Origin: Octopus vulgaris
Lineage: Eukaryota
Assembly (NCBI GenBank): GCA_951406725.2
Contig: OX597843.1
Coordinates: 20,460,001 to 20,524,000 of the forward strand
Direction: 5' to 3'
Length of the DNA stretch: 64,000 nt
The notes beneath the pieces were generated by a model. The model did not search any database. It saw only the letters and a list, made by a program, of their open reading frames with translations, and was not told the DNA's origin. This document shows, piece by piece, positions 4,473 through 58,805 of the stretch (position 1 is the first letter of the stretch; each line of letters starts with the position of its first letter). The translations under genes and the position numbers were made by a program.

Positions 4473-4518
<46 letters not shown>

Positions 4519-4520
<2 letters not shown>

Positions 4521-4704
4521 TGTACGCATTTTTTTCTCTCCTTCTTTCTGTGTTTTTCTCTCTCTGTGTATCTTTCTGTTGAAGAGCGTAGGCTCGAAAC
4601 GTTAAAGACTTGTTTTATTTATATTTCCTGAGCGCCATACTAATACAATTGTTCGTTTGTTTTCCACCTGCCTTCGTCTTTTGTTTATTTCATAAAGCTT
4701 CCCG

Positions 4705-4705
<1 letters not shown>
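4519..4705 (+). mobile_element. ~190 bp solo PLE pLTR between (TA)n tracts, with variant hammerhead at 4571-4608
   Basis: tcttt-CTGTTGA-A-GAGC-GTAG-GCTC-GAAACGTT-aaaga; A6>U core variant; (TA)n on both sides. Confidence 0.7.
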
Positions 4706-4795
<90 letters not shown>

Positions 4796-4811
4796 TATAC
4801 ATATATATATA

Positions 4812-5888: not shown

Positions 5889-5890
<2 letters not shown>
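4812..5890 (-). mobile_element. 5'-truncated PLE (GIY-YIG, 3' UTR, HHR) with an inverted copy of its own 3' tail
   Basis: Minus ORF has CVYSIRC..YVGETARSIGERVNGH..EH..ITEATHIIENKPSLNRK. Arms ~4812-4960 and ~5686-5835 are inverted repeats. HHR with CTGATGC core at 4934-4977. Confidence 0.85.
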
Positions 5891-5983
<93 letters not shown>

Positions 5984-6005
5984 TATTTATATTTATATAC
6001 TTACG

Positions 6006-6036
<31 letters not shown>

Positions 6037-6054
6037 GTATCTATGCATATATGA

Positions 6055-6980
6055 GGAGGCAAAACTATATAAAAATTTGTTGTTCACGATGCACCTAAAT
6101 TTGGATTTTTTAATAATAACCTTATTTGAATTGTTTTTAAATAACCTTATTTACATACATACCAAATTAGTTTCAACAATACTTTTTTTTAATAGTAAAA
6201 ATTTAAAATATTGAACTAGAAAAACATGTTTCAATGTTTACAAGTTTCAGTGATATGAAATATGATTTAAATATTCATAACATTCAATAATATAAAAGAT
6301 GTGGAACATCTTGTTTGAATGCATAAAATTCAAAATATCGATAAGAAATGTGGTTCATCAGAGTTTTGGTCATACAGGGTAAAGAAGGAGAAAAACAAGG
6401 GAGAATTGAGATAGTGGAAAAAGGGAAATCTTTGAGCACAGTCCCTGTGAATCACTTTCCGCCGTGTGCAAGGACTTTTGCTTGTATCGGCGTTATTTGG
6501 AATTGGATGTGTTTACAATTTTTTCCGTGAACCGATCTGATATTTGATTCATTAAATTACAGGTGACGTCTAATTTTTCTCGTGGGCAAGGTTGTTGTTC
6601 TGCCTGATGGGCTTCCCTGTGGGCATAAGCCATTCCAGTTGGTTGATTCTCTTAAAGCGTCACTTTGTTGTGTTTGCTCAAGTTCGGTTCTGATCAGAAG
6701 TAAAATTTCAATGATTTATGAGACATCGGCAACTGGTGATTATATGGTGTTATTGTATGGCGATTTGGATCTGCTATTTCGAAACCCGCGTTGAAGACTG
6801 GTACTAAAGATTTTTGAATTATGTCTGTTGTATCTCGGGTTTTTATTGTGGAAAAATTGTTTCTTTTTCCTTTTTCTGTTTAGTGTTTAAACAGAGGTGA
6901 ATAAGCGAGAATGAATTAAACGATATTCTTTATTCCATAACACTACCATTGAATATTATTCAGGTGTTGTAATTAATATA
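6055..6980. repeat. Unclassified block present three times (also ~38665-39720 and ~53350-54265)
   Basis: Alignable by eye, e.g. cagttggttgattctcttaaa and tttcgaaacccgcgt occur in all three copies. No TE motif recognised. Confidence 0.85.
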
Positions 6981-6981
6981 T

Positions 6982-7270
6982 AGCGCATGTCTTAGTGGTT
7001 AGAGCGTGGAGCTTACAATCGTGAGGTTGTGAGTTCGAAACCTGGACCGGGCTCCGTGGTGTATTCTTGAGCAAGACAGGTGTAGAAATGAATTGCGACG
7101 TCACAGGTTCCAAGTCGTATCGGCAGTTGCCTTTCCCTTAGATACAGAGGGGAGGCCGATACGCATGGGCGACAGCTGGTCTTCCATAAACAACCTTGCC
7201 CGGACTTGTGCCTGGGAGGGTAACTTTCTAGGTGCCAACCCATGGTCAGTCATGACCGACGGGGGTCTCA
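6982..7270 (+). mobile_element. tRNA-derived SINE (copy at ~54268-54585)
   Basis: A-box-like cttagtggttagagcg and B-box gagttcgaaacc, followed by a non-tRNA body. Absent from the third copy near 39715. Confidence 0.85.
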
Positions 7271-7513
7271 GTTCAATCCTTACCATCTATTGTAGGTGTA
7301 AAATATGCTTTTAGGTGAGTATTTCAATAAGTTCTACGTTAGATCATAGAATCATTTCACAGACACATGTTCCACCTTTGATGAATGGCAGTGATCACAC
7401 AAGATATTAACCATATCATCTCATCAATGAACTACGGGAGTGATGTATAGACACAATTGCAGGGATATGGAATAAAGAATGTCGTTGAAACCATTCGCTT
7501 ATTCCTCATCAGC

Positions 7514-7612
7514 TATGTATGTATGTATGTATGTATGTATGTATGTATGTATGTATGTATGTATGTATGTATGTACGTATGTACGTATGTATGTACTATG
7601 TATGTACGTATA
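7514..7612. repeat. (TATG)n microsatellite
   Basis: Tandem tatg run. Confidence 0.95.
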
Positions 7613-7854
7613 TACCATTATTTCCTCTTTTACGTGTTTCAGTAAGTTGACAACAGGAGAATCACCTTGAAGTATGTAACTCGAACGAATCGAGACCACT
7701 AACTATTACTGGTACTTACCCTGTCGGCCGCTTATGCGAAATCGCTGACTGACGTGGAATTAAACGCATTAACATAGGTTGTGAAGAAGTAGTGAGTACA
7801 AACATAGAGACTAAATCACACACATACACTCGCACACATATGTATATTTTATAA

Positions 7855-7910
<56 letters not shown>

Positions 7911-7914
<4 letters not shown>

Positions 7915-8348
7915 GAGTTAGGACTCTAGTCCATGGAGCGAAAACCGAAGAGGTATGTAGTGATATGTGTGGAAGTTACTAGGGAAGCTGTTATCAAACT
8001 TTGGAATTCAGAATTATACCAGACGTCGAATTGGACGTCACTGCACTGTTCCAAAAGTCCCGGCTCTCTCATTTAATATTAGGAGAATATATTGCAATAG
8101 TTTGGAGTTCAAGTGCTCACAGATATTTAACACCTTGCCAACACATCTGAGGAGTGGGTGTAGATGTTTCAAGATAAAACTTGACCTCTTGCTATCCAAG
8201 TGAACCAATATCAGGGCAGGAAACTCAAAAGACTGCAGCGGTAGCGAACTCCGGCCAATCCCATAAACTCGGCCAGTCGGAAAAGTGTTTACACTCATGG
8301 GGCCCCAGCATCGACACAGACTCAGGGTTAAAACATAAAAGAATAAAA

Positions 8349-8351
<3 letters not shown>
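7911..8351 (+). mobile_element. CR1/L2-like LINE 3' fragment (copy at ~54850-55282)
   Basis: LGL*SMER..VWKLLGKLLSNFGI..GRHC..SQIFNTLP..FKIKLDLLL; (TAAAAGAA)n tail running into (TA)n. Confidence 0.7.
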
Positions 8352-8380
<29 letters not shown>

Positions 8381-8385
<5 letters not shown>

Positions 8386-9096
8386 TGAAGGTTTGAAAAT
8401 GCAATTTTAAAAGATGTTTATTTACTTGACCGGTTTCACTTTCTTAGAAAAAGATTGTCAAAAGTAACATGTAAAAGCTTTGTTGTGTTAGGTACTGATT
8501 GTCTACAATACATATACACATTCCTTGATAATCATATGAACATTTAGTTAGTATATAAACGTACAATGAGGGAGATATTTTTAGTTTGAACTGACCTAAT
8601 TCACCATATTATCGTAAAAGCTTTTACGATATTATGGTGAATCAGGTCAGTTCAAACGAAACATATCTCCCTCATTGTACATTTATATACTACCAAAATG
8701 TAACCTTTTTGAACTTATAATTTTCTGTGTGTATATATACAGATACAATACCAATTTTCCTCTGAACTTTTTAATAATTCTTTCTGTAAACTGTTTTTAA
8801 CATTTTCTTTTATTATCAAAGAATGTATATATGCATTGTAATCTTTTGTACCCAATATTTTAATGAACTTGTCAAATTTCTTTTATATTTTCCCAAGATT
8901 TTCCCTTGTAAACTGTGTTTAACATATTCTTATTATTATCAAAGAATGTATATATGTATTGTAATATTTTGTGACAACCAGTACCTAACACAACAAAGCT
9001 TTTACATGTTGCTTTTGACAATTCTTTCTAAATAAGTGAAACCGGTCAAGTAAATAAACATTTTTAACATTGCATTTTCAAACCTTCTTTCATATA
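8381..9096. mobile_element. Fold-back element in (TA)n with decayed HHR in each arm (copy at ~55301-56018)
   Basis: Outer inverted arms ~8381-8530 and ~8935-9096; inner palindrome centred on aaaag|ctttt (8620/8621). Arms carry tt(a/g)ctt-TTGACAA..GAAACCGGTC-aagtaa at 8422-8467(-) and 9009-9053(+). Confidence 0.8.
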
Positions 9097-9199
9097 TAAT
9101 TCCACTCGTGCGGTACCTTACAACTCGAAACATTACTCTACGACAGTGGGTCGTACGTAATGTTTCGAGTGTATGGGCGCACGAATAAATCACAGCTTA

Positions 9200-9597
9200 A
9201 TCCAGAGCATGTTCATCATATTTTTCCGACATCCTCGGTATTATGCATTGGGAGCTTTTTCGGGGAGGACGTTTGGGGAAAACTCGTGAAGTTTCTTTCA
9301 CGACAAAAATGCACCTATCAACGTGTTTCTTGCCATCGCTTCCGCACCTGCCCTATTCGCCAGATTTACCACCTGCTGATTTGAATCTGTTCCTCAAGAT
9401 GAAAAATCAGCTCAGAGTTCGAGATCAAGAGCGAATTTAACGCCGTCGTCGAGATCAAGAAGTCCTCGAATCGTCTATGCTAAACTAAGTTCAGGCCGGA
9501 TTCAAAAGTGTCAGAAAAGCTGGGGCCGCTGTATTAATGATCAGGTAATATAAGTTACTTTTATTAAACATAACTCGTTCAGGAACTTTATATATAC
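9200..9597 (+). mobile_element. mariner transposase relic (3' end)
   Basis: LPHLPYSPDLPPADLNLFLKMKNQL (YSPDL motif). 3' end resembles ~25495-25545 and ~41725-41780. Confidence 0.75.
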
Positions 9598-9846
9598 GAC
9601 GGGTTTCCTTCAGTTACCGTGTACCCAATTAATTAACATACACGGGTTTGTTCGGTTGGAGTGCAGAGTACGCGCAGAAGGACTGAATACAGAAGCAAAA
9701 TTCTTATCACACAGCAATGCCAACGCCTAAACGTATGCACACACAACCACACACACACACACACACACACATACACAATACACACACACACGTATGACGG
9801 AAATGAAAAATGGATTTTACGTGATATATTAATCATTACTGCCGTT

Positions 9847-9984
9847 TCAACCCGTCTTCAATCGGCCCCTCATGGATGAGATAATGGTCGATTGGCCGCG
9901 GTGCATCTTTCTTTGCAGATGTTTCTCATCAGTTGACATTTCAAAAAGTTCTCTGCTCAATAAACTCGGTTTCACTTGGTTCGA
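9847..9984 (-). other. Candidate exon-like island B (also 42010-42147, 56424-56561)
   Basis: 46-codon frame SNQVKPSLLSRELFEMSTDEKHLQRKMHRGQSTIISSMRGRLKTG* is open and indel-free in three copies. The upstream acceptor position reads AA, not AG. Confidence 0.3.
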
Positions 9985-10001
9985 TTATAAAATATTTCGT
10001 T

Positions 10002-10003
<2 letters not shown>

Positions 10004-10038
<35 letters not shown>

Positions 10039-10122
10039 TTTAGTACGAATGAGGTGAAGAAGAAGAAGAAAAAGAAGAAGAAGAAAAAGAAGAAGAAGAA
10101 GAAGAAGAAGAAGAACAACAAC

Positions 10123-10154
<32 letters not shown>

Positions 10155-10190
10155 AAACAACGACAACAAAAACAAAAACAACAACAACGA
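10004..10190. repeat. Compound (TAA)n-(GAA)n-(CAA)n microsatellite
   Basis: Seen directly; length-variant copies near 42170-42220 and 56582-56775. Confidence 0.95.
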
Positions 10191-10356
10191 AGTCGGTGAT
10201 GAATAAAAAGTAATATAAATAGCAAAAAAAAAAAAAAACAGACAAGATGGACAAGCAAAACAATAACAAGAAAATTTGGGAATGAGGATAGAAATGATAA
10301 TAAAAATATATCAACATAAGTAAAATTATCAGACATACACACAGACACAAACGTAC

Positions 10357-10486
10357 GAGGGACACACCAAACGTTGTTTTATGTTGTGGGCGACTAGCTA
10401 CATTAACATCCTTCCTAAAGAAATTGAAACGGCATATGCAGCCATCACACTGCACAGTTTGGCCAAATTGCCCCAGCTGTAGCTCA
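10357..10486 (-). other. Candidate 130-nt exon A (also 42374-42503)
   Basis: Acceptor ttttcta(t/tt)..gtacAG and donor CTC|GTACGT in both copies. Frame ELQLGQFGQTV(Q/H)CDGC(I/L)CRFNFFRKDV..FGVSL is open in both. Confidence 0.35.
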
Positions 10487-11106
10487 CTGTACATATAGAA
10501 AATGACGACTACCAACTTCAGCACGTCATGTAATTGTAGTGTTTAAAATAACTCATTATTGAATCAGTATCTCAAAAGAGTGAGGATGAATATATTTCTA
10601 TACTTTCTTCTCTTGAAGTGAGTATAACTCTGCATAAATATATATTTCATAATATACCCACCTATAGACACAAATGCAAACATAGATATTCACGTGCAAT
10701 CGTACACTCATACACAAAATGTTATACATTTATGCTGACACATAGAGACACAAACATTTCATAGACACCTTCATTCACACTCTTACATGAATATAGTAGA
10801 ACATTAGTTAGAGATAGAGAGAGAAAAAGGAAGATGAGAAGACATTAAGTTCCTAGAAAAATGTCATAAATAGAATAATATCAAAAAACTTTAGCAACTT
10901 ACATTTCCTTTAAACTTGAAAGATTTTGAAAGGATCCTTGTGAGATGGTTGTGATCTTATTATAAGCGAGATTTCTGAAAAATAAAACACAATTCAAAAG
11001 TAAGAGTATCAAAGATTATTAAAAAGATTTCTTATAAACTATTATTAATTCTTGTATCTTTAGAATCATATTAATAAAAAGAGGATGGTGAAGGAGAAAA
11101 TGGCCG

Positions 11107-11140
11107 AGATGATGTTGATGATGATGATGATGATGACGAC

Positions 11141-11199
<59 letters not shown>

Positions 11200-11281
11200 C
11201 GATGATGATGATGATGATGATGACGATGATGATGGTGACGATCGTGACGATGGTGATGTTCGTGACGATGATGATGATGAA
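11107..11281. repeat. (GAT)n microsatellite (copy ~57114-57345)
   Basis: Tandem gat/gac run. Confidence 0.95.
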
Positions 11282-11604
11282 AGATGTGGTGAAAAGTTAG
11301 AAATTGATAAGATTAACGAAGAAGGTGAAGGAAAATAAATCATAGAACGGATAAATACAGAGAAGTAGAAGAAGAAGAAGCGAAAATGATTCATGAAGAG
11401 AGGAGAAAGCAGTTGATTAAAAGCAGAAGAACCAGAAAATGATGAACAAGATGAATGTAGAGAAATATTGTGAAGAAGACGATAAATGCAGGAAAAGAAG
11501 ATATATTAAGACAAGAAAAATAACGTGGAATATCAGAATTGGGAAACAAGTGGGAATAAAAGAATATAAATACAAATACTATAGTCACACATCAAACACA
11601 AACA

Positions 11605-11664
<60 letters not shown>

Positions 11665-11699
11665 CACAACCCGCCATCGATTCAACTCGAATGAATTCC

Positions 11700-12508
11700 A
11701 CTGGAATATGTGAATACTTTCTGCTACCTTGGGAGCCATCTGTCAGCAAAGGCAGACCTCAGCGATGAAATCCAACACCGTCTGAAGTGTGCAGGAACAG
11801 CTTTCGGCAAGCTTCGAACAAGAGTTTTTGCTGATCGGGACATCCGAACCGAAACCAAACACATGGTGTACAGGGTAGTCATTATCTCAACCCTCCTTTA
11901 CGCATCCGAAACCTGGACCCCGTATTGTCACCACCTGAAAACGCTCGTGAAATTTCACCAACGCTGTCTTCGAAAGATCCTTAACATCAACTGGGAAGAC
12001 AGAAGAACTAACGTCAGAGTGCTACAAGAAGCAAAAATGACCCGCATCGAAGCCTATGTCATCAAAGGCCAACTAAGATGGAGCGGCCACGTGGTTAGAA
12101 TGACTGACGAACGACTACCCAAAGAGATCTTCTACTCCCAACTCAAAGACGGCAAGCATACAAAAGGAGGCCAGAAGAAACGCTACAAGGACTTCCTGAA
12201 AACGAACCTCAAAAAGTGTGACATCGAATTCACTAACTGGGAGGAAAAGGCAAAAAACAGACCACTCTGGAAAACCACCATCCATAAGGGAACGGCGACA
12301 TTCGAGTCGAAAAGGTCTGCAGAGCTTGAGGAGAAAAGACGACGACGGAAGGAGCGCCAACAACAACCACTTGCGACTCTCCCTTCCGGCACTAGATGTC
12401 CGCACTGCGACCGATCTTTTCCAGCAAGAATTGGTCTTATCGGTCACCTACGGACTCACAAGTATATTTGCGCGAAGACCATCATCCTCAACCTAGAGTG
12501 ATTGCCAT

Positions 12509-12511
<3 letters not shown>
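11700..12511 (+). mobile_element. RTE LINE 3' fragment with uninterrupted 263-aa frame, inserted in (TA)n
   Basis: FCYLGS, LLYASETWT, QLRWSGHVVRM..RLPK, GGQKKRYKD, CPHCDRSFPARIGLIGHLRTH. Absent from the duplicate (57676-57828). Confidence 0.92.
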
Positions 12512-12550
<39 letters not shown>

Positions 12551-12585
12551 TAGATAGAAGATAGAAAGATAGATATATATATATA

Positions 12586-13111
12586 CACACGTTTATGTAT
12601 TGGTTTTGCAAGAATTTTGATGTGAAATCGTGCTTTAAAACAGATATTGTTGTATTTAGGAATGGTCATTTTGCCAGTTTAACCAATAAGAACACGTGCA
12701 CTATATATTTGCTGTTACTTTGCTTCAGCATTATTTCTCTTTTAAATTAATCTTAATCTTATTTCGGCCAGAGTTCTTTCGTCACACTCCTGTGACCTCA
12801 TCAGTGGTCCTTTGCTTTTTTCTTTCATATTTGTGTGTCTCTCCTTACTAACGGTCAGTCATTTTGTATTTTCTATTTCTATTGTTTGTGTCTTCATTTG
12901 CGCATGGGTATACCTCGATATGGGTCTATGTGTGGGGAAGTGACTGTAATATTTGTATCTCCTGTTTATATATGTTCGAAATAACTGTGGCCGAAATAAC
13001 ATTAAGCTTAACGTAAAAATTAAATAACACTGAAGCAAAGTAACACCAAAGATATAGATAGTGCGTGTGATTTATTGGCAAAACTGGCAAAATGACCATT
13101 CCTAAATACAA

Positions 13112-13113
<2 letters not shown>
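12586..13113 (-). mobile_element. Non-coding PLE fold-back mini-element, same family as 4812-5890 (copy ~57830-58372)
   Basis: Inverted arms ~12645-12780 and ~12977-13113; (TA)n flanks. Confidence 0.85.
12766..12810 (-). ncRNA. Type I hammerhead ribozyme, intact core
   Basis: ggacca-CTGATGA-G-GTCACA-GGAG-TGTGAC-GAAA-GAACTC-tggcc; perfect 6-bp stem II, CUC cleavage triplet. Confidence 0.82.
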
Positions 13114-13162
<49 letters not shown>

Positions 13163-13359
13163 AGGGATGAAATGGAGCCGAACGAAAATTCTACAAAATT
13201 CCTTTTTATTATTTTCTACACATGTTTCAAAGGCTGCAAATTCCCAAATTCGGATTGAATAAGGAGCCCATTCTGCAGCTTTCTCTTCAGGAAAATCAGG
13301 AATTTAAAATCTCCAAACAAATGCGCAGCAAGCTTTTCGAACAAAACGCTCCCTAGGAG

Positions 13360-14032
13360 CCCATGGTAAAAATCAGAGAAAGGGACAAATGGTACCAACT
13401 GATGAGACGATCTGCAATAGATGAAGAGCAACGCAAGGCACAATTGTAGTGAGAGAGAATGCGAGACCAAGGTAGAAGACAGGATGAGGAAGAACAAACA
13501 CAGTACAAGGAACAACAAAGATTGATATTTCTGCGGAGAATGGAAAACATGAATGATATGCAGTGTGCGCAGTATCAGGACCAACAGAAAAGCGTAATGT
13601 AACAGAGTAGGGAGAATATGGATGATTTGGAAAGGGCTGCTTGTCTTCAAGGTCAAACAGAGAGACATCAAGATGGAGTTGCAAGTATGAATGCTGAACA
13701 GGCGTTACGTTTGCGAGATGAACAGGTGCAACGAAAGCGTGAAGCAAGACATGGACTACCGCTGAACAGACACAATAATCCTAAACGAACCTATCGTATT
13801 GGTGATATGTACTTATATTGCGAGTATTGTGGAGCACTGAACTTTAAATATGAAAACTTCATGTTCAGTCACAATAATAAAGTGAATTTTCCTACACTGC
13901 AACTAAAACCTCAGACATTGAAGCGTTTGTCTGAGAAAATTACATCAGCAATTACAACTGCATACCTTCCTTTACGTCATTTGGTGTGAAACTCTGTGTG
14001 CCACAGGGAAGAGGTCTACATTGTTTCTGTAT
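13360..14032 (+). mobile_element. Helitron RepHel N-terminal part (copy ~60060-60778)
   Basis: R/E/Q-rich repeats, then YRIGDMYLYCEYCGALNFKYE..HNNKVNF and SFTSFGV..QGRGLHCF. Confidence 0.8.
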
Positions 14033-17000
14033 TGTTGTGGAAGGATTTCGACCACCTTCCAATTGACTAAACGCGAACTGACACATTCCTATTAAATAGA
14101 CAACTGTCGAGTCTTCAGCAATTAATTGGTAAATAGTTCACCGTGAGCCATTGACAGAGAGCGTTTGGTAATCGATTCGCGTCGTGTATACACTTTCTTT
14201 CCCCCTGATTCCTTAAATCATCCGTTCCAAACCAGAGTATAAAAGTGGCGAAGAGTTCTTCGAAGTTTGCGTTCGACGTTTAAATTTGTTTGGGATGGGT
14301 ATGAAACCAAAGAAAAATTGTTTAAGATAGAAGGCTTATTGGCGTCTGTGGTGCAGTTGCAACAGCATCAATAGTAACAACAACAAGAGCAACTACAACA
14401 GCAACAACAACAAAACCAAGAGTTGCTGGAATCAATGCTAAAGAAGTCTAAAAATATTTCAGGCGTGAACTTGCCAGACAGCGTAGCAATCTCTATTGAA
14501 GTATTCAGTTATAATTCAGAAGATGGGATTACCTTCTCTGCATATTTTCGAAGATACGAAGAAATTTTCAAAGAAGAATTTATAAATTGATCTGAGAGGA
14601 AAAATAGTAAGACTACTTTGTAAGACAGGTATCCCTTTGCCAAATACAAAAAAATATTGTAATTATATTCTGCCCATGAAGTCGGGTGAATAAAAACTAT
14701 TAACATTTTATCAAATGATTTAGAACTGGACGAAAATTAACTCTACAGACAGAAGCAGAAGAATGCCAGAAAAGACGACGCAGAAAAAAATGAAGAAAAA
14801 GATTGCTCTCATATTCCAGTGTCTCCACCGTAACGGATAAGAAATAAGACAAAAAATGTCAAGAAGGAGTCCATGTTGTGGTCTACATTTTAAAAGTAAC
14901 TGCCAAGTTAAAATCCAAAAACGAAATTTTGTCAAAACGTTTCAGTGAAAGAAGTTCTCTGCTAAATACTTGCGGACAGTTTTTATATTTTGTCCCAAAA
15001 CATGAAGATTTCGTCACCTGTGCCGAGGATGTTAACGGAAAGTGTAAAAAATTCAAATTATATGAATTAAGATGCATATTTTTCAAATGCATATTTTTGG
15101 TTTAAGGCCTAACTGCAAGCAAAGATGGAAATATATGTTCACGGATGTCAACAAAATTAGAACTGGACAAAAAGTGACTCTACAAACAGAAGCAAAAGAA
15201 TGCCAGGAAAGACGACGCAGAAAAAATGAAGAAAGCGACGCCCAAAACGAAATTGAAGAAAAAGATTGCTCTCATATTCCAGTTTCTCCACCGTAACGGA
15301 TAAGAAATAAGAGAAACAAATGTGAATATCGAATCCATGTTGTGGGTGCGGTGGTCAACATTTTAAAAGTAATTGCCCGTTTAAAAATATAAAAGGAGTC
15401 AAATGTGGCAAGAGAGATCATAAAATATCACACTGTTGAACAAACCTGGAAAACAGCTCAACAGAAAGAAAACACGAAAACAGGTTATCGGTGACCAAAA
15501 ACCGAACAGCCTCAAAGGAAATTTGTGGACGTAAAGTTGCAACTAGTTAAGGGCAGTGATATCTCGATAATTAACACAGATACATAGAAAAAAAACAGAA
15601 GACTCAGATTAAGACATTTCGAAAATTGTAGGTGGTGTTTCAGGAAAATAATTACATTTTAATGGCGTAATGATGAACCACGTTCCATTTCGTGGAAAAA
15701 ACCTTATAAACCAAAGATTTTGTGTTGAATAACATCCCAAATATATTCGGAAAACTGAATAAAATTGTTTACCTTATGGGAACTCCCCATAAATCTTTTC
15801 AGTAAAAATGTGAATGGTTTTCTTGCCAATACAAATGAATCGGCGGACGATTTGTAAAAATAATTTAAAAAGATTTTTCCTGAAGTTCTCTCTGATAAAT
15901 TAGATCTGAGCATCACAACGAAAACGAAGTTCCAAGTAAAAGTAAATGCCAAACCGGTATTTAAATATAAACGAACTGTAACTTTTGCATCGTTGGAACA
16001 GATAAGCTTTTGCATCGTTAGAAACAAATAAACAAAATCAGAGTGTATGCTGATTTTTTCCACTCGTTTAAATGAGTGTCTTAAAACGTTCCACTATCAG
16101 CTACCTACCCTGGGGGATATATTTGCAAAATTAGACGGTGGCAAGGTATTTTCTTAATTGGATCTCCCTGACGCGTACCTACATATTAACGTAGACGATG
16201 AATGCTATAAATACCTAAAGATTAACGCACATATGTATATATATTTCTTTACTACCCACAAGGATCTAAACACAGAGGGGAAAAACAAGGACAGATAAAC
16301 GGATTAAGTCGATTACATCGACCCCAGTGCGTAACTGGTACTTAATTTATCGACCCCGAAAGGATGAAAGGCAAAGTCGACCTCGGCGGAATTTGAACTC
16401 GGAACGTAATGACAGATGAAATACGGCTAGGCATTTCGCCCGGCGCGCTAACGTTTCTGCCAGCTGGCCGCTTATGTATGTACAACAGGTTACTGTATGC
16501 CTTTATGTCACACCGGCGATTTTTCAACATCTTATGGATGCAGTGTTAGCGGATAGTAAAGTTGCATATCCATCTCTGGATGATATACTCATTAAAAGCG
16601 AATCACAAGATCAACATGTAGAGCAAGTAATATATATGTTCGAAAAAATTAGGGATTACAGTGAAAAAGAAAGCGTGAATTTTCTTCTTAACGAAAATAA
16701 AATTGGACAAACAATTGAAAGAATTGGATGAGGACCAGATCCGTTGAGGGCAGACGCAATTAAATACATGTCCCCTCCAACAAATATAACGACCTTACAT
16801 GATTGCTTTGGAGACAAGCAAATTATTAACAAACTTATATTCTAATTATTCATAGGGTAAGTGTTACAGTAGATTATGTATTTTAAAAATTGTCAATTGA
16901 AATGGCTCTGAAAATTGTCAAAAGGAATTCGACAAAATTTTAAAATATTAACATCTGATTTGTTGTTAGCACGCTTCGATTCTGTAGCGGAGAATGTTGT

Positions 17001-26679: not shown

Positions 26680-29202
26680 TACTGGTAAATCTTCCTATAG
26701 ATGATACACAAGATAGCAATCCCTCCACACTATCTATCAAAAACCGCCTTATCCATATATGGAATGAAAACCGTAAAGCCAGAAACTTTTCTTTCTGGAA
26801 TACGATTAAAAACAACCACAAGACAGAAATCTACGAACGCTGGCTAAACTCTACACCAATAATTTTGCCTCGTAAATTCCAAATTCAACGTATTCCAAAG
26901 AAGCCGACAACGGAAGTGCGGTAGTAGTGATGAATACAGAATACTACAAATATTTAACACTTTCCATGTTGGAAAGTAATACTTACTATGAGAAATTAAT
27001 ACATAACCACCCACAGAAAACACTGAAAAACTTGCCCTCCTTACTCCAAATTCATGGAAAGGGTCTCACTAACATTGAAATAGACTTTTTACCCAATTTT
27101 AAATAGGGTCCTAGTCTATTCTACGGATTACCCCCCCCCCCAAAAAAAAATCCACACGTTTGTGAAGCCTGCAAAGTCTCTACAAGCCTAAGCATTAATG
27201 TCCCTTCCTCTACTGACCTCAAAATGAGACCCATCATAGCGGGGCCTTCTTGTGAAACCCACCGTTTCAGCAATTTCCTCGACATCTAACACAAAACGTT
27301 TTTTTAAAGATATGTGAAAAGCTTTATCAGGGATGACCTAGACATGCCGAACCACCTCCCGAATACATTAAAGGAAGGAACCATGCTGGTGTCTTTCGAT
27401 GTGGTGAATCTGTACACCAATATCCCACATGAGTATGGTATAGAAGCAATCACATCCTGGCTAGAAAAATACCCAGAAGAGATCCCAGGATACATAAACC
27501 ACAGATTGATAATCGAAGCACTCAAATTCGTCCTGCTGAAAAACTATTTCATGTTCGATACAACTTACTATCGAAAACAATGTGGAATTGCAATGGGAAC
27601 CTGAGCTGCTCCAGTGATTGCAAACCTTGTAATGGGTTACCTAGAACTGAAGTTATACCAATCATCACTAGAAAATTATGGCGCCTCTTTTAATTGCTAT
27701 TTAAAGGAGAATTGGAAGAGGTATTCGGATGATTGCTTCATACTTAGGAAAGACAGCATGGACAAACTCCTTGATTTGAACGTAATGCTTAACAACATAC
27801 ATAGCAATATACAATTCACTATGGAACACAACAGTAAACAACTCCCTTTTCTAGACATGATAATTAAAATAGTTAACCATAGCATAGAAACAGATATCTT
27901 TTATAAATCCACAGATTCTAAACAATACCTATTGTTTGACACCCCAAACACATAAAAATTAATACACCTTTTAATCTGGCGAAAAGAATATGTACCATAG
28001 TTTCGGATACATATATTCGTGAACAAAGACTCCTTGAACATAGATCAACACTAACTAAAAGACATTACCCAATCTCATTAATAAATGATGGCATTAGAAG
28101 AGATCAGGAAATAGATATACAAATATTAAGGCAAGCCAGCCGAAATTCTAAACCAGACTTAAAAATACTCCCGTACATTTCCACACATAACCCTAGAAAC
28201 ATCGAAGCCTTCAATATTATCACCCAAAATCTTCTCATCCTCACAGGAGACAAAACAACGAACGAAATTTTAAGCTCATACAAAATTTATAAAAAGCAAA
28301 CTACAACCCAAGTCACTGAAAAAGTATTAACCAGCGTAAGACTATATCCACAAACAACAGAGCCAAAAGTGAAAAAATGTGGTCGTCTCAACTGTGGAAC
28401 ATACCGCAACGTTTTGGATGGTTCATAATTCCTCTTCAAGCAGGGTGAAATATTTAAGATCAAATCACATTTCACCGGACACTCTGAAAATCTAATCTAC
28501 ACCATGACTTGCTTAGGATGTGGTAAGCACTATATTGGACAAACAGGAATATCCCTCCGTCGAAGAACCACCATGCAAAAGGAAGAAATTCTCCACCCAC
28601 AATACAGACAGTGACAGCTTAGTGAACACATAGAAAGGTGTGCTAGGATTCCTAATCCTAATTTCCAAATTTTCCACTTCTATCAATGTTCACAGAACAC
28701 CTCAATGCAACAAAGGTTGAATAAAGAGACAATTTCCATCAATAAATATATTCCCCAACTGAATATAAACACACAACCTAATACAGAACACTACTATCCC
28801 TTCAATTAACACCATAAACACCAATACATTCCTTACAAAATTCAGATTCAAATTCTATATCAAACCTTACTGCACAAAATCCAGAACTACTTACCTCCCT
28901 TACAAATAATCTTTTTATTCAGGCACTATTAGACCTAACACCGTTCATTAGCCGGTGTTCATTCAAAGCAATGAATGGCTTATGACGAAAGCATGGTTTG
29001 CTTTCTGACTCTTTAATCATCTCATAATAATGACTTTTATGACTCTTATTACTACCTCAGTCCATCTAAACGTATATATATGTCGTTACCTTTCATAAAA
29101 AGCTTTTTCTTGCTTTATTTACAATGTGCATTTTCGTTGATTTTTCATATTTTCCCTTACATTTACACGTGTATTTCCTAATTTCTTCTTGTAACATACT
29201 TC

Positions 29203-30660: not shown

Positions 30661-30707
30661 TGACTTTATACACACATACACTTATATAGATATACATATA
30701 TATTTAT

Positions 30708-30754
<47 letters not shown>

Positions 30755-30759
<5 letters not shown>

Positions 30760-30976
30760 TAAAGCAGCAGAAAATTCAACAAAACCTGTTACTCTGAGTT
30801 TCCCGTTGTCGTTCATCGGACAGTTTTTGCTAGACACTGTCTGATGAACGGCAACGGGAAACTCAGAGTAACAGGTTTTGTTGAATTTTCTGCTGCTTTA
30901 AATAAAGCATATTACTCTACCAATTGTATTTAAGAACTCTTTTTTCCACCTTGTTTCACATTAATGTGTTTACTCC

Positions 30977-30978
<2 letters not shown>
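30755..30978. mobile_element. ~225 bp fold-back mini-element in (TA)n with a near-perfect 150 bp hairpin
   Basis: Arms 30755-30824 and 30836-30905 differ at only 2 positions; a unique tail continues to 30978. Confidence 0.92.
30837..30874 (+). ncRNA. Minimal type I hammerhead ribozyme, intact core (mirror copy 30786-30823 on minus with CCGATGA)
   Basis: ctgt-CTGATGA-ACG-GCAA-CGG-GAAA-CTCAGAG-TA-acag; GNRA-capped stem II, near-palindromic stem III, GUA site at 30868-30870. Confidence 0.85.
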
Positions 30979-31065
<87 letters not shown>

Positions 31066-43189: not shown

Positions 43190-44750
43190 GTAGATGATCA
43201 TAAACCATTTCAGATTACAAGAAATTGATTTATGTTGAAGTTTATGGATTAGTCGAGATAAATAGGTAGTGTCAGACAATGCTTTGTCTTAAAGGGTCAG
43301 TGTTAGTAAGGAAGTTGAAGTGTGTTCTATTTTTGTGGATATGAGGCTGGGGGTTCGGGTGAGTTATGTTATTATGATAAAGGTTACTAATTGTATGTTT
43401 CAAAGTTCCTTATATGTTAAGATTTCGGATTGGTCCAACAATTTCAGTGGTGGTGGAGTAGGAAATTGTTATAGATTGCGGGTTAAATATTTTGGTATAG
43501 GGGCTGGACATAGGGAGATGCTTCTCGTGTATGGTGAAGAAGAGCATGGGTACAAGGGGTCGGGTATTAAGAGGGAAGGGTGTATTCTTGGTTCCGAGGT
43601 TAGTTGAGGGAGGCTTGTTCCACATAGGGGTATATTTGATCGAATTCGTATGACCGGAGCGTTGTAAGGCGCAATTATAATATTCAGCGTATTGTTCGAA
43701 TATTTCCGTACCGGCGGGCAGTGATGAAATCCGTTTTGATACGATATCTACGATAGAGTTTAGGACAACTGGCGTTGTGTTTGGAGGAAAAGTTGACGTA
43801 GTGGAGGTTCCCCTTAAGTTTATGGCATGGGTAGAAAATTTGACTTTGTAGATCTAGGGTGACATCTAGGAAATTAGAAGTTTTAAGGCTGTTACAAAAT
43901 GTGATGCAGAGGCCCACCTTTTTCAAAATATATCTTAGCCTTTTTCTAATCTGTTCAATTCGGCGGTTGCGAGAACCCCGAATGTCTCTATTGGCCCAGA
44001 AGTACCCAGTTTTATCATATGATTATATCAATATCGTCACAAGTGAGGTTAGAGTGTATCATTGCAAACATGAGGACTTTGTTGAGAAGGATAAGGGATA
44101 CACTAGAGTGATTTGGTCTATGTCGATCTGGATGAATTTAAAAGCATGTTTAGGGCTTTAGGAATTAAACCACTGGACGGCTTGAGTAATTTCAGGCCAT
44201 AGGTGTAGTGTGTACGTTGGATGCAGTTGGGGGTATAATCCTGTCTGATAAAATCTTGTGATCTTACTTGTATCTGAAATGGAGAAGCAAATAAGGCGAA
44301 CGGAATGGTCCTTGCCAAATTTTATTTTCTAGTCTTCTACGTTAATATCGAATGTGCGAGTTAAGGAAGGTTCAGTCCTATCTTCTAATCCGAGTTCGAA
44401 AACGAGATCACGGTTCTTGATGATGATGTCTTTTCGAGTGGAACCGGTACAATATGGTAGCCTTTACGTAGTTGCTTGAGTATTAGCTCACGGTATTTAT
44501 CTAGAGGAACGTTATAAAGGTTGCTGGTCTTGACGGTTTGAAGAGAATTTCAGAGTATTTTTGAAGACTCGCGATGATAATATAAGTTTTAGTTAGGTGG
44601 GGTTTGATTGTTATTTTTCTGGGTTTCAATGTGATGTCTTTAACGAGATTGGTAAGATCTTGGTCGAAATTATCTGGTTACGCTTACGAAGTGCATATAT
44701 AACGTTTCTCTCTTAGTCTGCGAATTATCTTACATTCAACAACATATAAT
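43190..44750 (-). mobile_element. Nematis-type PLE, close relative of 36850-38254
   Basis: High similarity over ~43590-44695; adds KIFNPQSITISYSTT. Confidence 0.82.
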
Positions 44751-50178: not shown

Positions 50179-53100
50179 TCCTATACATACAACACATAGT
50201 AAACGTGAACAAATACACAATTACATACCGGCCATATTCAGAAACGAGACATTACGTACTCCCAGAAATTTTTCTCCGATCCTGAATGCTATTTTATATG
50301 CATATAATTCGATCCAGCAGCCATAGTAAATGGTATGCACACAGCGCCATCTGGACCATTTCACTTCTGCACTTATTTTATTTTATTTTTCTTCAATCTT
50401 ATAAGTTCTCACATACATGCAAAGCCACATATTCGGGTTCAAGTCCTTGACCATTTTATACTAATAGCTATTTTTTCTTTTAATAATTACATTACTTTAG
50501 TTTTATTTCATTTACTACTTACTATACTTACTAAATTTAATTCAATTGTTATTGCTTAGCTCTAACTTTTATTGCTATTTCTATTTCTAAATTTCTTATA
50601 GAACGTCGAGTGGATCTTATGCGTACACGCCGGTATTGCATCAGTGAACTTATTTAACACTGCGTTGTTGTAATTTTTCAATATAGTATATCCTTCCCTT
50701 ATGCATAAACCGCATCTAGTGGACCCAATTCTATAGGGGGGCGTGCGCAATGATAGGCCATGATATTTTAAATTCAACATTCCTTTCCTTAAGGTCATTA
50801 ACATGTAATGCCAATGTTGTAGAGTTCTTATATTTAGGATTGTTGAAAGAGCTCAGGTGGGATCGATACCTCTGCTTAAAGTCTACTGTGCTTCCAATAT
50901 ATATTTTCTCTGGCCTCCTTGAGCCTCAACACTACATTTATAAACTACATTTTCCTGGCGACAATTTCCGCTAATCGGACATACTGATGGGCCCCCTACA
51001 ATTACATTTCTTCAACCTGCTACGGGGTCTCGTATTACTGATCACTCCGAAACCATGCCCCCTCCCAGTACTAGGATCCACCATATCATTTACACCATCG
51101 TTCCTACTATTTTCCGGTATATGTATTGTTATATGTATATGTATTGTTATTCTTACTATTACAATCATTCTTATTTTTATTTTTACTAATATTTGTATTA
51201 CCATTATCACTACAATTAACACTATTATTACCACCCTGATAATCATTATAATCACTAATATCATCACCAACATCATTATTATGATTATCTCTACTATTTG
51301 CATTATTTGTCATTCCAATACGCCCTTCATAATCGATTTCAGAAGACGTATTATTAATATTAGACATCTTCTATGTCCTTAATGAATTTTCCATTAAAGC
51401 TTCTGTCATCATTTCTATCATTATAGCGCCTTATTTTACTTCTGTTCAACGAAGCAACAATAGATTCGACATTGGGAGTGTCTGAGTAGGCCAACTTGAT
51501 TGTTGACTTGTTACATATTGAATAGTACTTATGATGTTTTGGGATATTTTCCTTCAATAACTTTAAAAATAGCTTTGGTAAACCTTTCACCCTTAATGAA
51601 AAGGGAGAGGCAAACCAAATAACTTGACGAATCCTAGAGTTGGTATTAATAATGGGATTACAATATGTTGCTTGACTTGATGTACTAAATGTAAAGCCAT
51701 TCCTGTATCTATTAGTAATATTTATATTTTTATTTTTACTAATATTAGTATTATTCTTATTCCTATTTTTACCTTCACTAGACCTAAGCCCAACTTTAAA
51801 CCTCAATTCACATTTATGACTGCTATAATTTGCAACCCCTTCCCTCCCGTTGCTGTTATCATCCATGGTATTTTCATCATCACAATTCTCATTATTAACC
51901 TTATTAACGTGGTTACCATTTACAAAACCAACCACATCACATTCATTTCTCTTATTTCCAAATCTGCTTTTATCAGCTTGTTGCAAGTACCTTGGGGATC
52001 ATGAGGGGAGCCTCTGCTATCCGAAACCCGTTTCATACCGTCGCTGACCATGCTGGCCAACTTAATTTTTAATTTTGTATTGTGCATGTATTCAATATTA
52101 TTTGTGAACCCACTCAATTTTAAGGCATTGTTGTATATTGGGGCGTGTTGATTAAAGATGTTTTTTCGCCGATAGGTTTGAGATTCTGATAGAAATTGCC
52201 GTTACAATGCTATTGATGGTTGATTTGGGATGATTTGAGGAAACATTGATATATCGGAAAGTTTGGTTTGGTTTTCGGAAAGGGTAGTGTAAGCTAGTAT
52301 TCAGATAGAGAGTGATGTCGAAGAAATCTGCCACTTTAGGATTATTCTCAAAAACGATGCTTAAATTATAAAAGTCCTTGAGAAATTCTCTAAGGTCCTC
52401 CTTCATTCTTTCAATCTGAGGATTTGAATGATTAGAGACGATGAATAATGCGTCATCCCAGTAAATCCCTCCGGATAGAGATGGAAAAAACCGCTTAAAC
52501 TTGTCTAACAAAAATAGATCAACAATATCCGTTACTTGAGCTGAGGCCGATGATCCCATAGTGATGTCGAATAAAATAAAAGAATGCGATTTAGACCAGT
52601 GGTGTTTTCCATAATTTATCAGAGTCATTCTTGCTGCTTGAATAATATCAATATCTAGATTCGATATTTCAACAAAGTTCCGGGCTAAAATAATTGCTTT
52701 ATTCAGTAAGATGGGAGAGATCGAGGATTAGTAATTCGAAATATCAAATTGTACAAATGAAGATGAGTCATCACATTTAATTGTGTGAAACCAATATTAA
52801 ACATCATTGGTAGATTCCCATAAGGGCAACATCGTCCTTTCTCTTATCACTGGAATAATTCTATCCAATATGGATTTGCTGATTCTACCCAAGTCAGATT
52901 TAGTTGGGCAAATTAATCATATTGACAGTTTGGCAAGAAAATCTTTTTAATGGGCCTTTAGGGTGCAGTGCGGGGTCTTAGGATCATAAGGTTGCGTGCG
53001 GTCAAGGATTACTTAATTCAGAAATTAAGTCGTAGTGTCTATTATTAATGTCGGTAAGAGCCGATTTCTTGGCGATTTTGTATTTAGCTTGCAGCTCTTT

Positions 53101-53301
53101 GGATATCAATTCATCATAAGTTTCATAAGGCACTGAATAAATATTGCCTGTTTTATCAGAAAGAATGTGTGGATTAGGATCTAAATGTTGGGCTTTATAG
53201 ATATAAATGAGTATATGAAGATTTGTATGTGTTTGGTCTTTCTGTGGATTTTGTGATGCTCCTGTGGTTGTTGCTCCATTGCCTCCCCGCGGATAAAAAA
53301 A

Positions 53302-53345
<44 letters not shown>

Positions 53346-56328
53346 ATATGCGGAGCAAAACTGTATAAAAATTTGTTATTCACAATGCACCTAAATTTGG
53401 ATTTTTAAAAAATTACCTTATTTGAATTGTTTTTAAATAACCTTATTTACATACATACCAAATTAGTTTCAACAATACTTAGAAATAATGAACTAGAAAA
53501 ACTTGTTTCAATGTTTATAAGTTTCAGTAATTATGAAATATGATTTAAATATTCATAACATTCAATAATATAAAAATGTGGAATATCTTGTTTAAAAGCA
53601 TAACATTCAAAAGATCGATTAGAAATGTGTATCATCAGAGTTTCGGCCATACAGGGTAAAGAAGAAGGAAAACAAGGGAGAAATTGAGATAGTGGAAAAA
53701 GGGAAATCTTTGAGCACAGTCCCTGTGAATCATTTTCCGTCGTGTGCAAGGACTTTTGCTTGTAACGGCCTTTTTGGGAATTGGATGTGTTTACAATTAT
53801 TTCCGTGAACCATTCTGATATTTGATTCATTAAATTACAGGTGGCGTCTAATTTTTCTGCTGGGCAAGGTTGTGGTTCTGCCTGATCGACGTCCCTGTGG
53901 GGGACGGTCATCAGCCATTCCAGTTGGTTGATTCTCTTAAAGCGTCACTTTGTTGTATTTGCTCAAGTTCGGTTCTGATCAGATGTAAAATTTCAATGAT
54001 TTATGTGACATCAGCAACTGGTGTTTATATGGTGTTATTGTATGGTGATTTGGATTTGCTATTTCGAAACCCGCGTTGATGACTGGTACTAAAGATTTTT
54101 GAATTATGTCTGTTGCATCTCGATTTTTTATTGTGGAAAAATTGTTTCTTTTTCATTTTTCTGTTTACTGTTTAAACAGAGGTGAATAAGAGAGAATGAA
54201 TTAAACGATATTCTTTATTCCATAACACTACCATTGTATATTGTTCAGATGATGTAATTAATATATAGTGCATGGATCAGTGGTTAGAGCGTGGAGCTTA
54301 CAATCATGAGGTTGTGAGTTCGAATCCCGGACCGGGCTGGGTGTTGTATTCTTGAGCAAGACCCTTTATTTCGCGTTGCTCCAGTTCACTCAGCTGTAGA
54401 AATGAGTTGCGACGTCACAGGTTCCAAGTTGTATCGGCAGTTGCCTTTCCCTTAGATAGAGAGGGGCGGCCGGTATGCATGGGTGACTGCTGTTCTTCCA
54501 TAAACAAACCTGCCCGGACTTATGCCTGGGAGGGTAACTTTCTAGGTGCAATCCCACGGTCAGTAATGACCGACGGAGGTCTCAACCATCTATCGTAGGT
54601 GTAAAATATGCTTTTATTTGAGTATTTCAAAAAGTTCTCCGTTAGATCATACTATCATTTCACAGACACATGTTCCACCTTTGAAGAATGGCAGTGATCA
54701 CACAAGAAATTAACCCAGTATTAACCATACTGGTCTTACAAAGAATAAGTCCCGGGGTCGATTTGCTCGACTAAAAGGCGGTGTTCCAGCATGGCCGAAG
54801 TCAAATGACTGAAACAAGTAAAAGAGTAAAAGAGGGAGTAAAGAGTATTTGAAAGATTTTGGACTCTACTCCATGGAGCGAAAACCGGAGATGTATTTAG
54901 TGATATGTGTGGAAGTTACTAGGGAAGCTGGTATCAAACTTTGGAATTCAGAATTATACCAAACCCCGAATTGGACGTCACTGCACTGTTCCAAAATTCC
55001 CGGCTCTCTCATTTAATATTAGGAGAATGTACTGCAATAGTTTGGAGTTCAAGTGCTCACAGATATTTTACAGATCTGAAGAGTGGGTTTAGATGTTTCA
55101 ACATACGACTTGACCTCTTGCTATACAAGTGAACCAATATCAGGGCAGGAAACTCAAAAGACTGCAGCGGTAGCGAACTCCGGCCAATCCCATAAACTCG
55201 GCCAGTCGAAAAGTGTTTACACTGGTGGGGCCCCAGCATCGACACAGCCTCAGGGTTAAAACATATAAAAGAATAAAAGAATATATATATATATATATAT
55301 ATGAATGAAGGTTTGAAAATGCAATTTTAAAAGATGTTTATTTACTTGACCAGTTCCACTCTTTTAGAAAAAAGATTGTCAAAAGTAACATGTAAAAGCT
55401 TTGTTGTGTTAGGTACTGGTGGTCTACAATACATACAGACATTCTTTGATAATAATATGAACATTTAGGTAGTATTTAAATGTACAATGAGGGAGATATG
55501 TTTAGTTTGAAGTGACCTGATTCCGCATATTATCGTAAAAGCTTTTACGATAATATGGGGAATCAAGCCAGTTCAAACTAAACATATCTCCCTCATTGTA
55601 CATTTATATACTACCAAAATGTAACCTTTTTGAACTTATAATTTTCTGTGTGTATATATACAGATACAATACCAATTTTCCTCTGAACTTTTTAATAATT
55701 CTTTCTGTAAACTGTTTTTAACATTCTCTTTTTATTATCAAAGAATGTATATATGTATTGTAATCTTTTGTACCCAATATTTTAATGAACTTGTCAAATT
55801 TCTTTTATATTTTCCCAAGATTTTCCCTTGTAAACTGTGTTTAACATATTCTTATTATTATCAAAGAATGTATATATGTATTGTAATATTTTGTGACAAC
55901 CAGTACCTAACACAACAAAGCGTTTACATGTTGCTTTTGACAATTCTTTCTAAATAACTGAAACCGGTCAAGCAAATAAACATTTTTTAACATTGCATTT
56001 TCAAACCTTCTTTGATATATAATTCCACTCGTGCGGTACCTTACAACTCGAAACATTACGTACGACAGTGGTTCTTACGTAATGTTTCGAGTGTATGGGC
56101 GCACGAATAAATCACAGCTTAATCCAGAGCATGTTCATCATATTTTTCCGACATCCTCGGTATTATGCATTGGGAGCTTTTTCGGGGAGGACGTTTGGGG
56201 AAAATGACCGGATCTGGATTCGCGAAGTATTGAATTTTTCACGACAAAAATGCACCAGAGTACACGGAGAAGAACTAAATACAGAAGCAAAATTCTTATC
56301 ACACAGCCATGCCAATGCCTACGCGAAA

Positions 56329-56368
<40 letters not shown>

Positions 56369-56578
56369 GTATGACGGAAATGGAAAATGAATTCTACGTG
56401 ATACATTAATCATTACTGCTGTTTCAACCCGTCTTCAATCGGCCCCTCACGGATGAGATAATGGTCGATTGGCCGCGGTGCATCTTTATTTGAAGATGTT
56501 TCTCATCAGTTGACATTTCAAAAAGTACTCTACTCAATAAACTCGGTTTCACTTGGTTCCATTATAATGTATTTCGTT

Positions 56579-56634
<56 letters not shown>

Positions 56635-57675: not shown

Positions 57676-57834
<159 letters not shown>

Positions 57835-58386: not shown

Positions 58387-58447
<61 letters not shown>

Positions 58448-58759: not shown

Positions 58760-58761
58760 AA

Positions 58762-58803
<42 letters not shown>

Positions 58804-58805
58804 TG

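What the first reader, a model, noticed from the sequence alone, without database searches (positions are those of the whole stretch)
30755..30978. Very young 150-bp hairpin holding a hammerhead in each polarity
Seen: two 70-bp arms differ at only 2 nt. The right arm has an intact + strand HHR (cut after GUA at 30870). The left arm is its mirror with U4>C. The fold-back point lies only about 6 nt upstream of stem I. Inference: a transcript from either strand would form a rod in which the ribozyme is paired to its own complement. This resembles the ambisense HHR arrangement of viroid-like RNAs and could act as a conformational off-switch or a dsRNA/siRNA source. It is the best experimental candidate in the window.
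Basis: partly seen in the sequence, partly recalled or inferred. Interest (0 to 1): 0.72.

Follow-up and report, generated by a model that had tools for sequence, protein, structure and literature searches.

The report
Head-to-head Penelope retroelement stub, two hammerheads
The hairpin is real, but it is one of thousands of stubs in this genome where two shortened ends of a Penelope-type jumping gene lie head to head in a TA repeat, likely because the element copies its RNA from both sides of the DNA cut, so the mirrored ribozymes are probably a by-product and not a viroid-like switch.

Summary
The 70-bp arms (2 mismatches, 11-nt loop) and both hammerhead motifs are present. The 224-bp unit is an extremely 5'-truncated insertion of a Hydra-clade Penelope-like element (PLE): a direct pseudo-LTR (pLTR) with a 71-nt tail, joined head to head to an inverted, tail-less pLTR, in (TA)n. 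The hammerhead pattern has 4,717 exact genomic matches. A 727-aa RT/GIY-YIG parent ORF was found for the sister subfamily (94% identical pLTR). Corrections: the left arm's C4 is the subfamily norm and the right arm's U4 is derived; both arms mispair at 10.1-11.1; the insertion predates seven segmental duplicates, so it is not very young. Junctions differ between independent insertions, arms share subfamily variants, one arm carries the tail and the other does not (40 of 43 pairs), and either can be longer. This points to priming from both strands at two fixed RNA sites. About half of arms stop at the hammerhead's helix I edge; no excess begins at the cut site. A second family behaves alike. 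Opposite-strand PLE hammerheads are in print, and this scan reached the same reading on other DNA. Ordinary feature; modest mechanistic value.

The parts
30705..30754 (.). (TA)n target tract, left part
   Evidence: 8 paralogous sites without the element hold a continuous TA/TG tract
30755..30834 (-). Inverted, tail-less, 5'-truncated pLTR arm; its 3' end lies at RT start site 2, just after AATAAA (last 2 nt lost in this copy)
   Evidence: matches parent positions 3196-3275 at 94%; end class
30786..30823 (-). Hammerhead motif of the left arm: C4 core, A.G at 10.1-11.1, loop II ACAA, predicted cut after 30790
30835..30835 (.). One-base filler at the head-to-head junction; this junction is unique to the insertion and its 6 duplicates
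30836..30907 (+). Direct, 5'-truncated pLTR arm up to site 2
   Evidence: 30836-30978 matches parent positions 3206-3348 at 94%
30837..30874 (+). Hydra-type type I hammerhead: helix I CUGU/ACAG, CUGAUGA, A.G mispair, 2-bp helix II with GCAA loop, GAAA, palindromic helix III, predicted cut after 30870
   Evidence: near-identical layout to Hydra-2_aMil in the supplement of PMC8557442
30908..30978 (+). 71-nt PLE tail between start sites 2 and 1; in the parent it is 5' leader ending 19 nt before the ORF's ATG
   Evidence: two predicted stem-loops in the parent copy
30979..31058 (.). (TA)40 target tract, right part

Best explanation
The hairpin is a 224-bp, doubly 5'-truncated insertion of a Hydra-clade Penelope-like retroelement into a TA microsatellite, likely made when the element's protein cuts both DNA strands and primes two cDNAs, one at each of two fixed start sites on its RNA, whose free ends are then joined head to head. 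Shown: family membership, TA target, fixed outer ends, variable junctions, the one-tailed/one-tail-less rule, arm covariation. Inferred: two-ended priming; end joining by microhomology or filler; a class of templates whose 5' end lies at the outer edge of hammerhead helix I (probably a transcription start in the pLTR), which would make 80-nt and 150-nt arms the commonest product. Predicted: a read-through transcript forms a rod that blocks both ribozymes, as a by-product.
For: 4,717 exact pattern matches, control 0. 40 of 40 scored candidates match nearly the whole 224 bp at 88-100%. Parent with a pLTR at both ends and a 727-aa ORF with Hydra motifs. 8 empty paralogs, 7 filled, 1 filled by another family. 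40 of 43 two-arm pairs are tail plus no-tail; the other 3 have an arm ending elsewhere or beyond the fetched DNA. Second family: 31 of 35, 4 unclassified, none same-class. The tail-less arm reaches further 5' in 31 pairs, the tailed arm in 20, equal in 11, with kb-scale differences both ways. Arms share diagnostic bases in 42/48, 46/48, 47/48 and 39/39 pairs; shuffle maxima 38, 36, 37, 31. 41 of 128 arm 5' ends fall in 5 nt at the helix I edge. Of arms that reach that region, 56 of 116 stop there, against 0 of 24 pLTRs lying upstream of an ORF (p about 1e-6). In vitro, a Poseidon PLE protein cuts and extends both strands and starts at two sites that bound the tail (PMC11167929).
Against: No ORF was found physically linked to the window's own subfamily: all 24 ORF-linked pLTRs with a readable hammerhead, among 30 fetched of 69, are of the sister subfamily, and the remnant in L096 belongs to a third family. 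The parent ORF matches no Pfam family and no solved structure, so its assignment rests on motifs and on likeness to published Hydra proteins seen in a supplement. Arm covariation cannot separate one RNA from two RNAs of one source, nor exclude later conversion; in long pairs the partner arm is often no closer than arms of other copies. The unbiased sample is one stretch of one contig and needs one arm with a whole hammerhead. The 0-of-24 comparison uses long, young copies that may come from more processive events; 3 of them are mirrored pairs counted twice (0 of 21, p 5e-6). No cap-G signature was found. No contig from another run bridged the junction with 31 nt on both sides among those shown.
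Confidence: 0.8

Rival explanations
1. Single priming followed by fold-back or self-priming, as proposed for palindromic junctions of rotifer Penelopes, possibly on an antisense template.
For: Perfect palindromic junctions at a 4-nt palindrome recur. The arms share variants. PMC3846280 proposes self-priming (passages).
Against: Fold-back of a tail-primed cDNA needs the tailed arm to reach further 5', but the tail-less arm does so in 31 of 62 pairs, by 0.6-1 kb in L034 and L040. A site-2 cDNA holds no tail to copy. Many junctions have filler and no palindrome.
Confidence: 0.1
2. The mini-hairpin is itself a non-autonomous unit (MITE-like, retrozyme-like or ambisense replicon) that spreads whole.
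For: High copy number with fixed outer ends; a few junction types recur.
Against: The window's junction occurs only in its 7 segmental duplicates. Arm lengths form a continuum from under 80 nt to over a full unit. Recurrent junctions occur in different subfamilies and with the tail on either arm. The hairpins are not tandem arrays.
Confidence: 0.04
3. The hairpin is kept as a regulatory element: ribozyme off-switch, siRNA source or A-to-I editing substrate.
For: A rod is predicted on both strands. Penelope copies give small RNAs in a rotifer (PMC3846280, passages).
Against: Absent from 9 of 16 paralogous sites. The filled paralogs carry scattered changes, including in the hammerhead core of L005 and L007. 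The ORF scan showed only transposon remnants and simple repeats in the window.
Confidence: 0.05
4. Assembly artefact.
For: Hairpins between long TA tracts are hard to assemble; no independent contig shown spans the junction.
Against: Seven paralogs on two contigs hold the same junction with their own substitutions. Dozens of other insertions have distinct junctions. Contigs of three other runs show arms ending in TA at site 2.
Confidence: 0.01

Closest known systems
Hydra clade of C-terminal-endonuclease Penelope-like elements (Craig et al. 2021, PMC8557442)
   Same: RWK, DKT, C-terminal GIY-YIG without CCHH, CxxC and CxH, (TA)n target, hammerhead in the pLTR. The supplement lists Hydra-2_aMil with a near-identical hammerhead, and Penelope-13_HM with a hammerhead on each strand owing to an inverted 5'-truncated copy.
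   Different: The unit is 3.35 kb with a 1.1-kb 3' region (published ones are mostly under 3 kb). The tail is 71 nt (30-40 nt published). The second linker cysteine is intact in only 2 of 17 translated copies (overlapping loci included). The hammerhead differs from that of the published Hydra-1_oBim.
Inverted-pLTR-plus-tail insertion units of Penelope elements (Arkhipova et al. 2013, PMC3846280; Craig et al. 2021)
   Same: An inverted 5'-truncated copy at the 5' end, a tail at one end only, palindromic or microhomology junctions.
   Different: Here both arms are cut down to the pLTR alone, and the pairing rule and the 5' hot spot are counted over many copies.
Minimal and palindromic-helix-III hammerheads of metazoan PLEs (Cervera and de la Pena 2014, PMC4209133)
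   Same: Type I, in the pLTR, palindromic helix III, dimer predicted; that paper notes pairs on opposite strands 100-700 bp apart.
   Different: Helix II has 2 bp and lacks G10.1-C11.1; one subfamily has C4; the pair is under 30 nt apart.
Poseidon element PAc in vitro (Frangieh et al. 2024, PMC11167929)
   Same: Both strands cut and extended, AT-rich target, two start sites bounding the tail, hammerhead cleavage not needed for insertion.
   Different: A different clade; its start sites lie inside the ORF, here upstream of the ATG; the parts read do not derive the head-to-head unit.
Ambisense hammerheads of viroids and viroid-like RNAs (recalled; no call)
   Same: A hammerhead in each polarity held inactive in a rod.
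   Different: There the two ribozymes are distinct overlapping sequences on a replicating circle; here they are two copies of one genomic sequence with variable junctions.

Membership tests
Hydra-clade PLE | Single ORF, RT followed by C-terminal GIY-YIG | tested here: met
   727-aa ORF in L036 with RT motifs at 269, 328, 360 and VVY/YTG at 596-616; sister subfamily, not the window's own
Hydra-clade PLE | RWK motif and DKG modified to DKT | tested here: met
   RWK at 53, DKT at 129; conserved in 18 homologues
Hydra-clade PLE | No CCHH inside the GIY-YIG; CxxC and CxH flank the conserved E and N | tested here: met
   no cysteine between VVY and YTG; CRLC at 683, CRH at 711
Hydra-clade PLE | CxCx5C linker | tested here: inconclusive
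   intact in L103 and L240, second C replaced in the other 15 translations including L036; intact in the homologues
Hydra-clade PLE | Insertion into (TA)n | tested here: met
Hydra-clade PLE | Hammerhead in the pLTR | tested here: met
   both pLTRs of L036; layout as in supplement S2
Hydra-clade PLE | Phylogenetic placement with published Hydra proteins | not tested
   published proteins were seen in the supplement but not aligned or put on a tree
Canonical active hammerhead (filter of Perreault et al. 2011) | Unchanged core C3 U4 G5 A6 N7 G8 A9, G12 A13 A14, A15, U16, H17 | tested here: inconclusive
   met in the right arm, not in the left (C4); U4C lowers activity in vitro (PMC3088659)
Canonical active hammerhead (filter of Perreault et al. 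2011) | Paired 10.1-11.1 | tested here: not met
   A.G in both arms; mispairs here are common in listed Hydra hammerheads
Canonical active hammerhead (filter of Perreault et al. 2011) | Self-cleavage | not testable with these tools
   needs in vitro transcription
Non-LTR retrozyme | Head-to-tail tandem units, each with a hammerhead | tested here: not met
   single head-to-head unit; definition from bioRxiv 10.64898/2026.07.22.740005 part 1
Ambisense viroid-like RNA | A conserved unit propagated whole | tested here: not met
   junction private to one insertion; junctions vary
Ambisense viroid-like RNA | Circular RNA of both polarities | not testable with these tools
   no raw RNA reads were available

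The most novel reading that the evidence does not exclude
Hydra PLEs integrate by two-ended priming from two fixed sites on an RNA that begins exactly at the first base pair of hammerhead helix I. The hammerhead then marks the RNA's 5' boundary more than it cuts the template, and tiny twin-hammerhead hairpins are the element's main product, seeding thousands of dsRNA-forming sites in the genome. This would explain the PLE inverted pLTR and one-sided tail in one step.
Probability: 0.35. Interest if true: 0.62.

Novelty: new member of a known kind. Interest (0 to 1): 0.32.

Why it matters
The locus itself is an ordinary transposon stub. Its family is useful because how PLEs make inverted repeats and a one-sided tail is stated as open (PMC8557442, passages), and so is the job of their hammerheads. 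Two abundant families here give countable rules: one arm from each start site, either arm longer, a 5' hot spot at helix I that is missing from internal pLTRs, and no excess at the cut site. These fit the in vitro two-strand, two-site data and give direct predictions. The sister subfamily also offers near-identical full-length copies (69 leader-to-ORF junctions) for a first Hydra assay.

Tried and rejected
Rfam: no hammerhead hit, only chance hairpin families. Pfam and PDB: no significant match for the parent ORF or its alignment. Protein atlas: unavailable. Cap-derived extra G at arm 5' ends: seen in several loci but not genome-wide, G in 13 of the first 100 of 199 matches and 5 of the first 100 of 505; rejected. 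Hammerhead cleavage products as templates: 45 matches beginning at the cut site against 66 at a control site 4 nt upstream, or 33 against 31 after I dropped apparent 1-nt deletions by hand (12 and 35); about 9 of 20 inspected are true junctions; no excess with one control site. Intrinsic RT stop at helix I: disfavoured by 0 of 24 internal pLTRs. L096 as parent of the window's subfamily: rejected. Parent ORF of the second family: not found in 6 long loci. Upstream pattern count (180 matches): uninformative because subfamilies differ there. Sequencing runs: no RNA holder listed; one run guessed to be RNA holds family sequence but cannot be tied to this locus. Searches had script errors and were rerun; one search stopped before its last three duplexes. 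Literature searches for a printed two-ended model: 2 papers, listing only, not on this subject by title; 0 papers; some searches listed only papers cited here or unrelated ones. Subscription papers, including Arkhipova 2006, were not searched.

Full report
OBSERVATION. The arms 30755-30824 and 30836-30905 are 70 nt with 2 mismatches and an 11-nt loop, flanked by TA tracts. The + strand reads as a type I hammerhead with a predicted cut after A30870, and the - strand holds its mirror. Either strand is predicted to fold into a rod. The motif is not canonical: 10.1-11.1 is A.G, helix II has 2 bp, and helix III is a palindrome that is not predicted to form in a monomer. Rfam does not find it. The filter of Perreault et al. 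(PMC3088659, passages) would reject both arms, though that paper notes tolerated U.U mispairs and U4C activity in vivo.

FAMILY. The whole 224 bp, hairpin included, is a dispersed repeat in the window's genome G000 (2.8 Gb): 259 candidates, 40 scored, 88-100% identical. A 33-nt hammerhead pattern matches 4,717 times, control 0. I fetched 74 stretches around the first 100 listed matches, all on one contig, as a sample unbiased for hairpins. L036 holds pLTR-ORF-pLTR. [quoted passage not shown] These define the Hydra clade (PMC8557442, section 11 read whole). Published Hydra proteins and hammerheads in that paper's supplement look the same (searched, and part 2 of 59 read). The window's arms match this parent at 94%, but they belong to a sister subfamily (C4, G at 11.1) for which I found no linked ORF. 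In the parent the tail is 5' leader ending 19 nt before the ATG.

AGE AND TARGET. The window's TA tract lies in a segmental duplication. Of 16 distinct paralogs among 20 loci fetched, 7 hold this insertion (flanks 96-100% identical to the window), 8 are empty (87-94%) and 1 holds an independent hairpin of another hammerhead family. The exact junction occurs at those 7 places only. All 7 share the right arm's U4; the left arm's loop change is private to the window. The insertion is therefore older than these duplications and older-looking than the sister subfamily's 99-100% copies. A target duplication cannot be read inside (TA)n.

HOW THE HAIRPIN FORMS. Outer ends are fixed at two sites 71 nt apart, each followed by TA. 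In 40 of 43 two-arm pairs one arm ends at each site; L051, L070 and L103 have an arm ending elsewhere or beyond the fetched DNA (counted by hand). About 20 arms stand alone. Inner ends vary: junctions show 0-10 nt of overlap or filler, arms run from under 80 nt to more than a unit, and the tail-less arm reaches further 5' in 31 pairs, the tailed arm in 20, equal in 11 (both samples pooled, 6 duplicates of the window and L104 dropped). Simple fold-back cannot give this. The two arms share subfamily variants far beyond shuffles (42/48, 46/48, 47/48, 39/39; one false pair left in), so they come from one source at one time. Whether that means one RNA molecule is open. The second family (5,708 matches) follows the same rule in 31 of 35 loci with opposed arms, 4 unclassified (one locus counted twice, and one looks like two insertions). 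In vitro, the Poseidon protein PAc cuts and extends both strands and starts at two sites that bound the tail, and is predicted to be a dimer (PMC11167929, parts 1-2 of 4). I infer two-ended priming with end joining.

WHY SO SHORT. 41 of 128 arm 5' ends fall in parent positions 3194-3198 and 64 in 3189-3212. The parent's helix I is predicted to extend to A3194. In the second family helix I is 6 bp, and 25 of 76 arms end 6-7 nt before the core. Of terminal arms that reach this region, 56 of 116 stop in it, against 0 of 24 pLTRs lying upstream of an ORF (Fisher p about 1e-6; 30 of 69 such loci fetched). So it is probably not an intrinsic stop, and long copies come from read-through templates. The simplest reading is a template class whose 5' end sits at the helix I edge. 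The sequence there fits a pyrimidine-rich initiator consensus (recalled), but a cap-G signature was absent, and junction microhomology blurs exact ends. Arms do not begin at the hammerhead cut site more often than at a control site, in line with cleavage being dispensable for insertion in PAc.

WHAT IS KNOWN. Inverted 5'-truncated copies with a one-sided tail are standard PLE anatomy (PMC8557442 and PMC3846280, passages). Opposite-strand hammerhead pairs were noted in 2014 (PMC4209133, parts 1-2 of 4), where single motifs did not cleave and dimers cleaved weakly. Penelope-13_HM is listed with a hammerhead on each strand. I did not find the pairing rule, the helix I hot spot or an explicit two-ended model in print (open-access library only). 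The supplement of PMC11167929 and that of the bioRxiv preprint (part 1 of 5 read) were not seen and may bear on this. Earlier notes of this scan reached the same reading on other DNA of this genome, after I had formed mine; they call the host an octopus, which I did not test.

VERDICT. A real but ordinary Hydra-PLE stub, a new family member of a known kind. The ribozyme lock is a predicted by-product. The value lies in the family-level rules, which make the PLE insertion mechanism testable. Interest 0.32.

Noticed in passing
L115 (G000:C30:20384904-20388362): A paralog of the window's TA tract carries an independent hairpin of a second hammerhead family (6-bp helix I, U.U at 10.1-11.1, 4-bp helix III); 5,708 pattern matches. 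Variation is mostly at N7 and loop II, so it is a better cleavage candidate than the window copy. Its parent ORF was not found.
   Followed up: partly
window 2090-16243 vs 50875-62934: An internal duplication of roughly 46-49 kb period at about 90% identity; the window is dense in transposon remnants.
   Followed up: no
window 2324-4106 (-), 51363-52727 (-), 43413-43853 (-): Decayed ORF pieces that resemble Hydra-type PLE proteins of other families; 2324-3580 matches the L036 protein at E 5e-13 and carries an asparagine-rich stretch.
   Followed up: partly
window 27940-28425 (+): An ORF remnant that looks by eye like the RT thumb region of another PLE clade.
   Followed up: no
L096 700-3980: A diverged sister Hydra element (53-78% aa identity to L036) with a degenerate C4 hammerhead, next to a separate arm of the window's subfamily.
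   Followed up: partly
L031-L104, L240, L247: The second cysteine of the CxCx5C linker is replaced in 15 of 17 translations of the most abundant subfamily (overlapping loci included), although it targets (TA)n.
   Followed up: no
L220, L234, L227: Copies that run from the leader into the ORF and stop after 344, 308 and 1279 nt; possibly further start sites or deletions.
   Followed up: no
L036 upstream of the hammerhead; second family likewise: A pyrimidine-rich AG, like a splice acceptor, lies at the 5' side of helix I; PMC4209133 reports an intron ending there in Drosophila virilis Penelope.
   Followed up: no
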